The position numbers were made by a program, and so were the translations under genes. The notes beneath the pieces are model-generated. The model ran no database searches, was not told the origin of the DNA, and saw only the letters and a list, made by a program, of their open reading frames with translations. Shown here one piece after another: positions 54,858-58,210 of a stretch of DNA of 64,000 bases (the first letter of the stretch is position 1; the number at the start of each line of letters is the position of its first letter). Source of the DNA: an uncultured archaeon (GTDB lineage Archaea; Aenigmatarchaeota; Aenigmatarchaeia; QMZP01; QMZT01); assembly GCA_964441265.1 (NCBI GenBank), contig CAYYKJ010000007.1, forward strand, positions 1-64,000, written 5' to 3'.

Positions 54858-55256
54858 TCAGATCACCATGCTCGCTATCTTGCCTATGGCAGGGAACCTT
54901 TCCACTGCTTCTCTCGCTATGGGGCCCTTTATCTGGGTCCCCTTGGGATCGCCGTTCTCGTCGACCGCCACGGCCGCATTGTCCTCGAAATAAACGTAAA
55001 TTCCCTCGCCCCTCCTGTATTCCCTTTTCTGCCTGACTATAACGGCCCTGTGCACCTCGTGCCTGACCTTTTCAGTACCGACCCTGACCTTGCAGAAGAC
55101 CAGCGATCCCACGCCCGCCCTTGGCTTTGCCCTCCGGTTGGTCTTGTAGCCCTTGACTGAGATTATTTCCAGCATCTTGGCTCCGGAGTTGTCTATGCAT
55201 TTGAGCTTTGTTCTGGGTGTGAAGCTTTTCTGTACCCTGGATGACATTCCCTTCAT
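54858..55256 (-). CDS. rpl14: ribosomal protein L14 (uL14)
   Basis: KLKCIDNSGAKMLEIISVKGY…. Confidence 0.9.
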   Translation of the reverse strand: MKGMSSRVQKSFTPRTKLKCIDNSGAKMLEIISVKGYKTNRRAKPRAGVGSLVFCKVRVGTEKVRHEVHRAVIVRQKREYRRGEGIYVYFEDNAAVAVDENGDPKGTQIKGPIAREAVERFPAIGKIASMVI

Positions 55257-55624
55257 TTCTTTTCACCCTTCTTTTGGACGACCACGAAATGCTTGGTCTT
55301 AGAAAAAGGCCTGCACTCGGCTATAACGACTCTTTCCCCTTCCCTGGCGTGTATGCAGGGGGGGTTGTGCGCGGAAACCCTGGATTTCTTCTTCTCGTAC
55401 CTCTGGTATTTGGGGATGAATTCGTGGTATCCCCAGGATACCCGTACGGTGTTGTGGGACTTGGCCGACTTCACAATACCCTCGAAGACCCTTCCCCTGA
55501 CTGGCATTTCCCCGTGCCATGGGCACCTGGGATCCTCGCACTTCGCTTCAGGCGGCTTGATGCCGAGCCCTATGTCATTTTTCATACTAATTCCATTATC
55601 CAACTTATTTAAATACATTAACAT
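55253..55624 (-). CDS. rps17: ribosomal protein S17 (uS17)
   Basis: RGRVFEGIVKSAKSHNTVRVSW…HAREGERVVIAECRPFSKTKHF; probably starts at an internal Met. Confidence 0.85.
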   Translation of the reverse strand: MLMYLNKLDNGISMKNDIGLGIKPPEAKCEDPRCPWHGEMPVRGRVFEGIVKSAKSHNTVRVSWGYHEFIPKYQRYEKKKSRVSAHNPPCIHAREGERVVIAECRPFSKTKHFVVVQKKGEKK

Positions 55625-55695
55625 TACAGACGATTAACGGATTATATATTAAGAGGGTTAAATATTTAAGTAGTTTTGCGGTTTTCAGGTGAAAC

Positions 55696-56292
55696 ATGAT
55701 AAGGGCGGTAATATTCGACATGGGTGGAGTGATGGTCAAAAACAAATCAGAGGCGGTTTTCAGCAGACTCGCAGAGAAACTGGGCGTCGATCCCGCTTCT
55801 TTGGACGATTTGCGAAAGGAAAATTACCGGGAGATGCTGATAGGGGAAAAATCTTCGAGGCAGTTTGCAGAGATGATCAGCCGGCGTTTTAATCTCAGTG
55901 CCGATGTTATCGGGGAATGGAAGAAATCCTATTTAGAAGTGATGCCGGTAAACGAAGATCTTGCCGAGATGACTGGGAGCTTAAAGAGAATATATAAAGT
56001 GGCGATTATTTCGAACGTCCCTGATCTGCATGCTGACATTAATAAAAAGAGAGGCGTTTTTTCTCATTTCGAGCCGGCATTGATATCCTGCGACGTAGGT
56101 ATGGCCAAGCCCGATAGGGGAATATTCGAACTCGCCCTGGAAAAACTGGACATGAAAGCTGAAGAATGCATTTTCATCGACGATCGCGAGAAGTTTCTGA
56201 AGACTCCGGAAGAGATGGGCTTCCGCACGATACACTTCCGGAGCAACGGGCAATTGAAGAAAGATCTTGTGAAACTCGGGGTTCAGATTTAA
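55696..56292 (+). CDS. HAD-superfamily hydrolase, subfamily IA
   Basis: Motif I FDMGGV, motif II S/T (ISN), motif III K…, motif IV DD. Confidence 0.75.
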   Translation: MIRAVIFDMGGVMVKNKSEAVFSRLAEKLGVDPASLDDLRKENYREMLIGEKSSRQFAEMISRRFNLSADVIGEWKKSYLEVMPVNEDLAEMTGSLKRIYKVAIISNVPDLHADINKKRGVFSHFEPALISCDVGMAKPDRGIFELALEKLDMKAEECIFIDDREKFLKTPEEMGFRTIHFRSNGQLKKDLVKLGVQI

Positions 56293-56333
56293 AAGAATTC
56301 ATTCCCATTCTATACCACCGGGAGAGGGGTGAC

Positions 56334-57830
56334 ATGTTTTCTGAGGAAGACCGGAAGATTCTGGAGAATCACGTGACCAGTATAGACGGGGATATATACG
56401 CGATTTACAACCTCCCTCCCGAAGTGGTCGCCGTTCTTTTCGCCTACGTCTCCCGCTCGCCGGCGAGCTTCAGGGAGAACCTGCTCAAGCTGATAAAGAG
56501 CAGGGACCTCGACATGGGGGAACTGATCACCAGTTTCCGGAGGAAGGGGATGGATTACGGGGAGGCGAAGGAGAAGGCCAGGAAATTCCACGAGAAATGG
56601 GTCGTTGGATACGGCCACTCCTCCGTGGCCGAGCACGCCTTCGCAAGCATAGCCATAGAGAACGTGTCCATTCTCGCCACCAAGGTGATCGAGGACAACC
56701 GCCTGGCCTCCTACACCGAGAAGTCCACCAGATACCAGGTTTTCGACAGGGACAGGTACTACAAACCCGGAAGGATCATGGATTCGGAATTCTCCGGGGA
56801 GTATGAAGACTTCTGCAATTCACTTTTCGGTTTCTACACGGAAAACATGCCAAAGGTGATCGGCCATTTCAAGAAGGCCCATCCGAAACCGGAGGACATG
56901 AGCGAAAGGTTGTACGAATCCGTCTCCAAGGCGAGGGCCTGCGACGTCATGAGGTATGCCCTCCCGGCGGCCACCCTGACGAACCTGGGCATGACCATAA
57001 ACGCCCGCTCTCTGGAGCACGCCATCCGGAAACTGCTCTCCCATCCCCTGCGGGAGATGAACGAGACGGGGAAGGGAATCAGGGGGGAGGTCACCAAGAT
57101 CATCCCCACACTGGTGAAATACGCGGACAGGAACGAGTATATCGCTGAAACGAACAATGCGATGAAATCCTTCGGGATGGGCGGGGATCGGGAAGAGGGG
57201 AAGGCGGTCTCGCTGGTGGAATACGACAGGGAAGCGGAAGAAAAGCTCGTCTCGGCTATCCTGTACAGATATTCAAAAAGGTCCTATGGTCAGATAAAAG
57301 AATCGGTTAAAAAAATGCCTGCGGGAGAGAAGGAGGAAGTGATCGATGAGTTCCTGAAGAGGATGGAGAAGCACGACATTCCCATGCGTGAGCTGGAGCA
57401 CGTTTACTACACCTTCGACATCCTGTTGGACTACGGGGCATTCAGGGACATACAGCGCCACAGGATGTGCACCCAGACAAACCAGGAGCTGGGCACGGGT
57501 CATGGATATTCGGTACCCAAGGAGATGGAAGAGGTCGGGATAAAGGAAGGATTCACGGATCTCATGGAAAGGGCCAAGGAGCTGTTCGGTAAGATTTCAA
57601 GGAAGTTCCCCAAGGAGGCGCAGTATCTGGTCCCTCTCGCCTTCCGCAAGCGCGTTCTGATCACCTGGAACCTCAGGGAGCTGTTCTATTTCGTGCGCCT
57701 GCGCTCCGGCAAGGGGGGCCACGAATCCTACAGAAAAATCGCCTGCCGGGTATATGATGAGCTCGAAAAGGTTCATCCCCTTATGGCGAAGTACATCACG
57801 GTAGAAAGAATTAATGGTCCTGCAAGGTAG
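56334..57830 (+). CDS. tandem ThyX-like (flavin-dependent thymidylate synthase family) protein
   Basis: Half 1 has GHSSVAEHAFASIAIENVS…DNRLASYTEKSTRY (RHR replaced by DNR). Half 2 has FRDIQRHRMCTQTNQ (RHR present, SxRY missing). The ORF track starts at 56166, overlapping the HAD gene; Met 56334 is more likely. Confidence 0.5.
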   Translation: MFSEEDRKILENHVTSIDGDIYAIYNLPPEVVAVLFAYVSRSPASFRENLLKLIKSRDLDMGELITSFRRKGMDYGEAKEKARKFHEKWVVGYGHSSVAEHAFASIAIENVSILATKVIEDNRLASYTEKSTRYQVFDRDRYYKPGRIMDSEFSGEYEDFCNSLFGFYTENMPKVIGHFKKAHPKPEDMSERLYESVSKARACDVMRYALPAATLTNLGMTINARSLEHAIRKLLSHPLREMNETGKGIRGEVTKIIPTLVKYADRNEYIAETNNAMKSFGMGGDREEGKAVSLVEYDREAEEKLVSAILYRYSKRSYGQIKESVKKMPAGEKEEVIDEFLKRMEKHDIPMRELEHVYYTFDILLDYGAFRDIQRHRMCTQTNQELGTGHGYSVPKEMEEVGIKEGFTDLMERAKELFGKISRKFPKEAQYLVPLAFRKRVLITWNLRELFYFVRLRSGKGGHESYRKIACRVYDELEKVHPLMAKYITVERINGPAR

Positions 57831-57928
57831 TTATTCCTCTATTCTTTCGATGATCTCTTTTGGATTGTCTGCGAAGTGGATAAATTCTCTCTCACTTTTC
57901 CCTGTCATTTCTTTAACACTTCCCTGTT

Positions 57929-58210
57929 TTACCACTTCTTGAACTTCTTCTTTATCCTGTCCTCGGGCCGGGATATCATGACCTCGCCCCTGACCGATAC
58001 CCTCCTCCCGCCGGGAAGGATGAAAACGAATGTGCATTCCCCCTTCGCCAGCGTGGCTTCCTTCCCGTTGTCTTTCTCTATTTTCAGGGTGTTCCTGGTC
58101 TCGTCGATTACCCTGCCCCTTATCCCCACGGATTTTGGGTTTCTGGCCTCCTTGACCTCTATTTTCAGGCCGATCAGCTCGTGGCGGACCAGATTTTCAG
58201 GGGTGATCAT
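57929..58210 (-). CDS. rnp1: RNase P protein subunit Rpp29/Pop4
   Basis: LIGLKIEVKEARNPKSVGIRGRVIDETRNTLKIE…. Confidence 0.75.
   Translation of the reverse strand: MITPENLVRHELIGLKIEVKEARNPKSVGIRGRVIDETRNTLKIEKDNGKEATLAKGECTFVFILPGGRRVSVRGEVMISRPEDRIKKKFKKW

What the first reader, a model, noticed from the sequence alone, without database searches (positions are those of the whole stretch)
56334..57830. Tandem ThyX-like protein with complementary motif degeneration, inserted (with a HAD hydrolase) into the ribosomal-protein superoperon
Both halves resemble flavin-dependent thymidylate synthase. The first half keeps GHSSVAEH…S..EKSTRY but has DNR in place of the RHR signature. The second keeps RHR but lacks S..S.RY. 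ThyX forms active sites at subunit interfaces, so a fused pseudo-dimer with complementary loss is plausible and unusual. The plus-strand HAD and ThyX-like genes split the otherwise minus-strand S17 | Rpp29-SUI1-L29 run.
Basis: partly seen in the sequence, partly recalled or inferred. Interest (0 to 1): 0.55.

Follow-up and report, generated by a model that had tools for sequence, protein, structure and literature searches.

The report
Chlamydia-type tandem ThyX thymidylate synthase
The gene encodes an ordinary member of a large, already annotated class of double-length flavin-dependent thymidylate synthases (the class used by Chlamydia), in which the two fused halves have each kept a different part of the active site.

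Summary
Window 56334..57830 (+) encodes a 498-aa protein with two Thy1/ThyX domains (Pfam E=7.8e-28 and 1.2e-24 for the halves). The N-half has DNR in place of RHR but keeps S..EKSTRY. The C-half keeps RHR but has lost S..S.RY.

It is not unusual. The same architecture and the same complementary losses occur in all 50 diverse full-length relatives I aligned, from DPANN archaea, Patescibacteria, NC10, Armatimonadota, Myxococcota, Actinobacteria and Chlamydia. At least 596 species genomes and 918 clusters at 50% identity carry relatives. Chlamydia uses this class as its only thymidylate synthase, and the C. trachomatis enzyme is active in vitro.

In relatives the gene sits beside SHMT, thymidylate kinase, dCTP deaminase and dCMP deaminase. 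Mapped on canonical ThyX, the C-half supplies the FAD-holding residues and the N-half the dUMP-holding residues. A dimer of chains should therefore have two complete active sites, not four (inferred).

The HAD+ThyX insertion between S17 and Rpp29 is real but found only in two close relatives. No tandem ThyX structure is solved. Verdict: a genuine thymidylate synthase, a new member of a known kind, of low interest.

The parts
56334..57830 (+). Tandem (two-domain) flavin-dependent thymidylate synthase gene thyX, 498 aa plus stop
   Evidence: Translation. Pfam Thy1 E=2.1e-53 with 2 stretches. TIGR02170 103 bits against a cutoff of 87.9. More than 7000 full-length homologues, many named FAD-dependent thymidylate synthase.
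56334..57158 (+). N-terminal ThyX domain (res 1-275), the inferred dUMP-binding half. It keeps S97, K117, R123, E129, S131, R133, Y134 and R207, which align with Tm T55, R74, R80, E86, S88, R90, Y91 and R147. It has lost R78 and H79 (D121, N122).
   Evidence: Pfam Thy1 E=7.8e-28. hhalign to T. maritima ThyX gives 94% probability. Residue table over 50 diverse sequences.
56694..56735 (+). Degenerate ThyX motif of the N-half: D121-N-R-L-A-S-Y-T-E-K-S-T-R-Y134 (canonical RHRxxSxxxxSxRY)
   Evidence: E-[D/W]-x-R ... E-[K/Q]-S-[T/S]-R-Y is present in all 50 aligned family members.
57159..57827 (+). C-terminal ThyX domain (res 276-498), the inferred FAD-binding half. It keeps R371, R375-H376-R377, N446, R448, R457 and H463, which align with Tm R74, RHR, N163, R165, R174 and H178. 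It has lost E86, S88, R90, Y91 and R147.
   Evidence: Pfam Thy1 E=1.2e-24. hhalign to T. maritima ThyX gives 97.7% probability. Residue table.
57456..57464 (+). RHR signature (R375-H376-R377) of the C-half
   Evidence: R is 50/50, H 49/50 and R 50/50.
56320..56333 (+). Shine-Dalgarno-like stretch GGGAGAGGGGTGAC directly upstream of the ATG at 56334
   Evidence: Sequence read. Function is inferred.
55696..56292 (+). HAD-IA family hydrolase gene (198 aa), co-oriented with thyX and 41 nt upstream of it
   Evidence: Pfam Hydrolase E=4.1e-16 and HAD_2 E=6.2e-11. NCBIfam gives only sub-threshold hits to phosphatase and nucleotidase subfamilies. The same position is occupied by a HAD gene in L081 and L045.
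55625..55695 (.). AT-rich divergent intergenic region between S17 (-) and HAD (+). It is the presumed site of the promoters that the insertion makes necessary.
   Evidence: Sequence read. Promoter function is inferred, not tested.
55253..55624 (-). Ribosomal protein S17 gene, first gene of the downstream half of the split r-protein cluster
   Evidence: Pfam Ribosomal_S17 E=9.6e-23.
57929..58210 (-). RNase P/MRP protein p29 gene, last gene of the upstream half of the split cluster. Its 3' end converges on the 3' end of thyX.
   Evidence: Pfam RNase_P-MRP_p29 E=6.5e-26.

Best explanation
The gene encodes a functional flavin-dependent thymidylate synthase (ThyX/FDTS; dUMP + CH2-H4folate + NAD(P)H gives dTMP) of the double-length, Chlamydia-type subclass.

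An ancient internal duplication fused two ThyX subunits into one chain, and the halves then specialised. The C-terminal domain keeps the residues that in canonical ThyX hold FAD and activate dUMP from the flavin-holding subunit: RHR, N163, R165, R174 and H178 in T. maritima numbering. The N-terminal domain keeps the residues of the dUMP-holding subunit: R74 (as Lys), E86, S88, R90, Y91 and R147.

Two chains should assemble into a pseudo-tetramer equivalent to the canonical homotetramer. Only two of its four interface pockets are complete active sites, each formed by RHR/R174 of a C-domain and the S..S.RY loop of an N-domain.

What is shown: domain identity, the complementary residue pattern and its conservation across the family, orthology to Chlamydia ThyX, and pathway neighbours in relatives. 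What is inferred: dimer-of-chains assembly, two active sites per dimer, and that the auxiliary third-subunit contacts also come from the C-domain.

The HAD+thyX pair is a lineage-specific insertion on the opposite strand between Rpp29 and S17. It splits the ribosomal-protein cluster into two transcription units.

The confidence of 0.8 is a blend: about 0.9 that this is a genuine thymidylate synthase of the tandem class, and about 0.7 for the two-site model.
For: 1. Both halves are significant Thy1 domains, and the whole protein passes the TIGR02170 thyX equivalog cutoff.
2. Profile-profile alignment puts each half on T. maritima ThyX at 94% and 97.7% probability, and the halves on each other at 93.6%. 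My recalled TM0449 sequence was verified against PDB 1KQ4/1O26.
3. The AF2 model has pLDDT 89.6 and pTM 0.87. Foldseek hits only ThyX structures, with TM about 0.7 normalised to the target.
4. A review of MtbFDTS and HpFDTS structures assigns RHR and Arg199(Mtb)/R174(Tm) to subunit A (FAD). It assigns Ser71 and Arg190 to subunit B. It assigns Arg87, Ser105, Arg107 and Tyr108 to subunit C (dUMP).
5. The kept and lost residues follow that split in 50/50 diverse sequences (alignments).
6. S88, R90, Y91 and R174 are catalytically important in T. maritima ThyX.
7. Full-length colinear relatives occur in at least 596 species genomes, including Chlamydia crocodili at 35% identity over res 2-482. All Chlamydia-genus homologues are about 530 aa.
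8. Chlamydiae have ThyX and no ThyA, and the isolated C. trachomatis ThyX is active.
9. Relatives lie in dTTP-pathway clusters. One is Tmk-ThyX-DCD-dNK/Tmk-dCMP deaminase, and another has SHMT two genes downstream. Across the loci, SHMT occurs in 8, Tmk in about 10 and dCMP deaminase in 6.
10. The insertion context was confirmed and is shared with L081 and L045.
Against: - No enzymology or structure exists for this protein or for any DPANN member.
- No tandem ThyX has been solved, so the quaternary arrangement and the site count are inferred from alignment only.
- The N-half still keeps several FAD-side residues: S97 50/50, K/R at the R174 position 49/50, and NAR plus GH..EH in the DPANN/CPR clade. 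The 'dead' pockets may therefore not be entirely inert.
- The assignment of R147 to the dUMP-holding subunit rests on my memory of the T. maritima structure paper, not on a text read here.
- The window itself contains no other thymidylate-pathway gene.
- The rest of the genome could not be checked for thyA or tdk.
Confidence: 0.8

Rival explanations
1. It is a ThyX-like paralogue with another job, not the cell's thymidylate synthase. Examples would be a different pyrimidine nucleotide methylase, or a dispensable ThyX like the atypical Corynebacterium glutamicum ThyX.
For: Neither half has an intact ThyX motif. PDB holds an 'atypical ThyX not required for thymidylate biosynthesis' (3GE9/3FNN). 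The window has no other dTMP-pathway genes. The neighbour is an uncharacterised HAD hydrolase.
Against: Every catalytic and ligand-binding residue is present once per chain and is invariant across phyla. Orthologues sit in Tmk, DCD, dCMP-deaminase and SHMT clusters. Chlamydia relies on this class alone, and the C. trachomatis enzyme is active. The protein passes the TIGR02170 equivalog cutoff.
Confidence: 0.06
2. It is a genuine tandem ThyX, but all four interface pockets are used. The degenerate N-domain-centred pockets would keep a function such as a separate NAD(P)H, folate or regulatory nucleotide site, rather than being relics.
For: In the DPANN/CPR/NC10 clade the N-half retains GHSS.AEH, N223-A-R225, K233 and H237. 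S97 is invariant in all 50 sequences. The review reports that NADP+ can occupy the FAD site in Mtb ThyX.
Against: The second pocket type would need RHR from the N-half and S..S.RY plus R147 from the C-half, and all are missing. In the Chlamydia/Actinobacteria clade the N-half also loses H53 (to D), H59 and R165 (to Q). That pattern looks like relaxed constraint rather than a conserved second function.
Confidence: 0.12
3. The double length is an artefact: two adjacent thyX genes joined by an assembly or frame error.
For: None beyond the unusual length relative to the 216-258-aa solved ThyX chains.
Against: There is one uninterrupted frame. Hundreds of independent genomes and metagenomes have colinear proteins of about 500 aa, including complete genomes of Chlamydia and Sorangium and an 846-kb Aenigmatarchaeota chromosome. 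The halves are too diverged for a recent tandem gene pair (BLASTP E=0.71).
Confidence: 0.01

Closest known systems
Chlamydia ThyX (about 530 aa; formerly labelled 'UPF0159 protein', e.g. CPn_0746), with orthologues in Actinobacteria (e.g. Bifidobacterium), Myxococcota and other phyla
   Same: Two Thy1 domains in one chain, colinear over res 2-482 at 35% identity. Same complementary pattern: the N-half has E-D-x-R...EKS(T/S)RY and R147, and the C-half has RDLQRHR, N.R...LRS...GH. Annotated as FAD-dependent thymidylate synthase.
   Different: The Chlamydia/Actinobacteria clade forms the other deep branch of the family in a rough NJ tree. Its N-half has GDDS instead of GHSS. In the actinobacterial members the R165 equivalent is Gln. 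These proteins are also about 30 aa longer.
Canonical homotetrameric ThyX/FDTS (T. maritima TM0449, M. tuberculosis, H. pylori, PBCV-1; 216-258 aa)
   Same: Same fold for each half and the same set of ligand-binding and catalytic residues. The active site is built across subunits.
   Different: Here one gene encodes two non-identical 'subunits', and the contiguous RHRxxSxxxxSxR motif is split between them. The expected result is two complete sites per four domains instead of four. The halves share no BLASTP-detectable similarity with each other.
Archaeal S10/spc-type ribosomal-protein gene cluster (...L22-S3-L29-SUI1-Rpp29-S17-L14-L24-S4e...)
   Same: Gene order and strand on both sides of the insertion match the usual cluster.
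   Different: Two plus-strand genes, HAD and thyX, interrupt the cluster between Rpp29 and S17. This was seen only in the window, L081 (which also has a LOG-family gene) and L045. Other Aenigmarchaeota keep thyX elsewhere.

Membership tests
ThyX / flavin-dependent thymidylate synthase (Pfam PF02511 Thy1; TIGR02170) | Significant match to the family profile above the curated cutoff | tested here: met
   Whole protein: PF02511 181.4 bits and TIGR02170 103 bits against a cutoff of 87.9. Each half alone: 98 and 87.6 bits against a cutoff of 24.8.
ThyX / flavin-dependent thymidylate synthase (Pfam PF02511 Thy1; TIGR02170) | ThyX fold | tested here: met
   AF2 model pLDDT 89.6. All top Foldseek PDB hits are ThyX chains, probability 1.00, TM about 0.6-0.76 normalised to the target.
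ThyX / flavin-dependent thymidylate synthase (Pfam PF02511 Thy1; TIGR02170) | Contiguous ThyX motif RHRxxSxxxxSxR within one domain | tested here: not met
   The N-half reads DNRLASYTEKSTRY and the C-half reads RHRMCTQTNQELGTG. The motif is complete only when the two halves are combined. This holds for all 50 family members examined, including Chlamydia.
ThyX / flavin-dependent thymidylate synthase (Pfam PF02511 Thy1; TIGR02170) | Full set of FAD- and dUMP-contacting residues available to at least one inter-domain pocket | tested here: met
   RHR, N163, R165, R174 and H178 equivalents are in the C-half. R74(K), E86, S88, R90, Y91 and R147 equivalents are in the N-half.
ThyX / flavin-dependent thymidylate synthase (Pfam PF02511 Thy1; TIGR02170) | Four-domain (tetramer-equivalent) assembly with bound FAD, and dUMP methylation activity | not testable with these tools
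   Only single-chain prediction is offered. Activity is known for the C. trachomatis member from the literature, not for this protein.
ThyX / flavin-dependent thymidylate synthase (Pfam PF02511 Thy1; TIGR02170) | Genomic association with dTMP/dTTP and C1 metabolism | tested here: inconclusive
   Not present in the window. Clear in relatives: Tmk, DCD, dCMP deaminase and SHMT neighbours.
Tandem (Chlamydia-type) ThyX subclass | Single chain of about 450-550 aa with two Thy1 domains, colinear with Chlamydia ThyX | tested here: met
   The C. crocodili ORF is 530-534 aa.
Tandem (Chlamydia-type) ThyX subclass | Complementary degeneration: the N-half lacks R78 and H79; the C-half lacks S88, R90, Y91 and R147 | tested here: met
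HAD-IA hydrolase (neighbour gene 55696..56292) | HAD superfamily profile match | tested here: met
   PF00702 60.4 bits and PF13419 43.2 bits. TIGR01509 and TIGR01549 are above cutoff. No equivalog-level NCBIfam model reaches its cutoff, so substrate is unassigned.

The most novel reading that the evidence does not exclude
The whole tandem ThyX class, including the Chlamydia drug target, may be an obligate two-site enzyme with division of labour. A C-domain:C-domain' pair would form both flavin pockets and the N-domains would only deliver the dUMP loops. The two leftover N-domain pockets still carry GHSS.AEH, NAR, K233 and H237 in the DPANN/CPR clade. They may have been repurposed, for example as a dedicated NAD(P)H or effector site. 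I found no structure and no description of this in the searchable literature, so it may be an undescribed structural variant of FDTS.
Probability: 0.15. Interest if true: 0.5.

Novelty: new member of a known kind. Interest (0 to 1): 0.2.

Why it matters
For this genome it matters little. It shows that this Aenigmarchaeota-like DPANN archaeon encodes a thymidylate synthase for making dTMP de novo, and that its ribosomal-protein cluster has been split by a small insertion.

The more general point applies to the class, not to this locus. Tandem ThyX enzymes probably run on two composite active sites per four domains, and no solved structure exists for them. This is relevant to ThyX inhibitor work on Chlamydia and worth a structural study.

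Tried and rejected
- BLASTP of the N-half against the C-half found no significant similarity (E=0.71). Profile-profile comparison was needed.
- Literature searches for a description of the tandem class found none in the held library. The terms were ThyX with tandem/duplicated, two ThyX, DPANN, fused, ThyX motif, UPF0159 and CT632.
- Griffin et al. 2005 (JBC, C. trachomatis FDTS) is not held. I cannot say whether the complementary loss has been published.
- The look-up of encoding contigs for the window's own protein returned nothing on record.
- Foldseek against afdb50 was not available.
- A second thyA or thyX in the window was rejected. tblastn with E. coli ThyA, Tm ThyX and both halves, plus half-specific HMMs on all ORFs, hit only this gene.
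- The idea that HAD-ThyX is a conserved functional pair was rejected. HAD adjacency occurs in only 2 of the 84 other loci fetched (L045 and L081), beside the window itself.
- Recent horizontal acquisition judged by composition was rejected. GC is 0.52 in 56-58 kb, against 0.49-0.53 in the neighbouring 2-kb blocks from 52 to 62 kb.

Full report
**1. What is at the coordinates**

Window 56334..57830 (+) is one open frame of 498 codons ending in TAG. The ATG at 56334 is preceded by GGGAGAGGGGTGA. Homologues align from residue 1-2 with 100% coverage. The longer ORF from 56166, which would overlap the upstream gene, is therefore not the real start.

Pfam gives Thy1 (PF02511) at E=2.1e-53 in two stretches. 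Scanned separately, residues 1-275 score 98 bits (E=7.8e-28) and residues 276-498 score 87.6 bits (E=1.2e-24), against a cutoff of 24.8. The NCBIfam equivalog model TIGR02170 thyX is passed at 103 bits against 87.9.

- GHSSVAEH at residues 94-101
- DNR at 121-123, followed by LASYTEKSTRY
- RHR at 375-377, followed by MCTQTNQELGTG

**2. Alignment to a solved ThyX**

I recalled the T. maritima TM0449 sequence and verified it against PDB 1KQ4/1O26, where 219 of 220 residues matched. Profiles were built from 50 diverse family members. The N-half aligns to TmThyX at 94% probability, the C-half at 97.7%, and the halves to each other at 93.6%. Plain BLASTP between the halves finds nothing (E=0.71), so the duplication is ancient.

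An AlphaFold2 model built from 53 sequences has pLDDT 89.6 and pTM 0.87. By Foldseek it matches only ThyX structures. Every solved ThyX chain is 216-258 aa. No tandem ThyX has an experimental structure.

**3. The complementary pattern, residue by residue**

A review of the M. tuberculosis and H. pylori structures (PMC6514825) describes one active site as built from three subunits. T. maritima (Tm) numbers below are my mapping by alignment, not from the review.
- Subunit A holds FAD through the RHR motif and contacts dUMP through the first Arg of RHR and Arg199(Mtb) = R174(Tm).
- Subunit B adds Ser71 and Arg190(Mtb) = T55 and R165(Tm).
- Subunit C holds dUMP through Arg87, Ser105, Arg107 and Tyr108(Mtb) = R74, S88, R90 and Y91(Tm).

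S88, R90, Y91 and R174 are catalytically important in T. maritima ThyX (PMC8316439).

The table below summarises 50 full-length tandem proteins from about ten phyla (alignment blocks).

| Half | Invariant residues (Tm equivalent) | Lost positions |
|---|---|---|
| N-half | S97 (T55), K117 (R74), R123 (R80), E129 (E86), S131 (S88), R133 (R90), Y134 (Y91), R207 (R147) | R78 becomes D/W; H79 is variable |
| C-half | R371 (R74), R375/H376/R377 (RHR), N446 (N163), R448 (R165), R457 (R174), H463 (about H178) | E86, S88, R90, Y91, R147 (becomes Q/A/P/S) |

The C-half therefore plays the flavin-side role and the N-half the dUMP-side role.

In a D2 pseudo-tetramer of two chains, the pockets that pair a C-half RHR with an N-half S..S.RY loop are complete. 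The symmetry-related pockets would need RHR from an N-half and S..S.RY from a C-half, so they are not. That gives two sites per four domains.

The subunit-B residue R165 is invariant in the C-half. In the N-half it is Q in the actinobacterial branch. I therefore favour an arrangement in which two C-halves face each other and form both flavin pockets.

All of this quaternary reasoning is inference. The placement of R147 on the dUMP-holding subunit rests on my memory of the T. maritima structure paper.

**4. How common is it**

The word-indexed search returned more than 7000 homologues. The best 120 are mostly about 500 aa (range 460-630). Many are named FAD-dependent thymidylate synthase, from Aenigmarchaeota (best 76% identity), Woesearchaeota, Diapherotrites and Methylomirabilales. 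The window protein itself is already in NCBI at 100% identity (P0001).

The 80 best loci cover:
- DPANN archaea
- Patescibacteria
- NC10/Methylomirabilota and Tectomicrobia
- Armatimonadota
- Sorangium and other Polyangiales
- Acidimicrobiia and Bifidobacterium breve
- Chlamydia crocodili, at 35% identity over residues 2-482

An exhaustive phmmer search of 1.84 billion cluster representatives gave 918 clusters at E<=1e-30, mostly 450-700 aa.

A search with the Chlamydia ORF shows that the Chlamydia-genus homologues are about 530 aa. Some carry the old label 'UPF0159 protein'. A rough NJ tree splits the family into an Actinobacteria+Chlamydiae branch and a branch in which DPANN and Patescibacteria sequences cluster together.

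**5. Is it really the thymidylate synthase**

- Chlamydiae have ThyX but no ThyA (COG table in PMC5954106; Table 1 of PMC4913046).
- Isolated C. trachomatis ThyX is active in the NADPH-oxidation assay and is inhibited by ThyX inhibitors (PMC3498832).
- One Aenigmarchaeota genome has the operon thymidylate kinase - ThyX - dCTP deaminase/dUTPase - dNK/Tmk - dCMP deaminase.
- A complete 846-kb Aenigmatarchaeota chromosome has SHMT two genes downstream of ThyX and a thioredoxin-reductase-like flavoprotein gene immediately upstream.
- Across the fetched loci, SHMT is a neighbour in 8, Tmk in about 10 and dCMP deaminase in 6.
- The window contains no thyA, no second thyX and none of these pathway genes. 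The rest of the genome could not be examined.

**6. The operon insertion**

Pfam confirms L22, S3, L29, SUI1 and RNase P p29 on the minus strand upstream, and S17, L14, L24 and S4e on the minus strand downstream. HAD (55696..56292) and thyX lie on the plus strand between them.

The same insertion exists in the closest relative, L081, whose ThyX is 76% identical. There a LOG-family gene has also been added. It also exists in L045, whose ThyX is 78% identical but partial at a contig end. More distant Aenigmarchaeota keep thyX elsewhere.

The insertion is thus a recent, lineage-restricted rearrangement. It obliges S17-L14... to use a promoter in the AT-rich 71-bp divergent spacer; this is inferred. 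GC content is not anomalous.

The HAD protein reaches only generic HAD-IA models, and its weak resemblance to pyrimidine nucleotidases is far below cutoff. HAD adjacency occurs in only 2 of the 84 other loci fetched, L045 and L081. I assign no functional coupling.

**7. Verdict**

It describes the normal state of a large, annotated and partly characterised ThyX subclass, not a peculiarity of this locus.

I could not find a published description of the complementary loss in the held literature, and the key Chlamydia paper was not available. The two-site, division-of-labour model is offered as an inference that a dimer structure or FAD stoichiometry would settle.

Novelty: new member of a known kind. 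Interest: low.

Noticed in passing
L081:7501-8151 (-): In the closest relative, a LOG-family gene (Lysine_decarbox / LDcluster4) sits between thyX and Rpp29. The window has only about 98 bp there. The insertion site seems to accumulate cargo.
   Followed up: partly
window 55696-56292; L081:5365-5952; L045:7352-7948: The HAD gene at the conserved position diverges much faster than its neighbours. It is 30% identical to L081 and 52% to L045, against 76-78% for ThyX and 71-83% for S17. This suggests relaxed constraint or a non-orthologous replacement.
   Followed up: partly
window 55696-56292 (res 8-10): HAD motif I reads D-M-G (FDMGGV) instead of D-x-D, in both the window and L045. From memory, YihX-type HAD-IA phosphatases show the same feature. 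The Asp+2 general acid is absent.
   Followed up: no
L083/L084:5337-9669: An Aenigmarchaeota genome carries a compact dTTP operon: Tmk - tandem ThyX - DCD/dUTPase - dNK/Tmk - dCMP deaminase. It is followed directly by a Ribosomal_L16-family gene.
   Followed up: partly
loci L001-L080 (NJ tree): DPANN archaeal and Patescibacteria (CPR) tandem ThyX sequences cluster together at 50-57% identity to the query. They sit apart from the Actinobacteria+Chlamydiae branch, which suggests cross-domain transfer among small-genome episymbionts.
   Followed up: partly
N-half columns of L040-L078 and L042/L044/L046: In the Chlamydia/Actinobacteria branch the N-half GH..EH motif is GDDS..(Q/E)L, so the His53 equivalent is Asp. 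In the actinobacterial members NAR is TGQ, whereas Chlamydiae have NGR. The C-half has an aromatic, His or Arg residue (H/F/Y/R) at position 347 that may take over the folate-stacking role of His53.
   Followed up: no
P0230, P0234, P0161, P0192: Some cluster representatives of about 290-310 aa match only the N-half or only the C-half. They may be contig-end fragments or genuinely split two-gene versions. A split version would imply a heterotetramer.
   Followed up: no
window 57831-58037 (-) and 56166-56333 (+): A 68-aa minus-strand ORF partly overlaps the Rpp29 gene. The 5' extension of the thyX ORF overlaps the 3' end of the HAD gene. Both look like chance ORFs.
   Followed up: no
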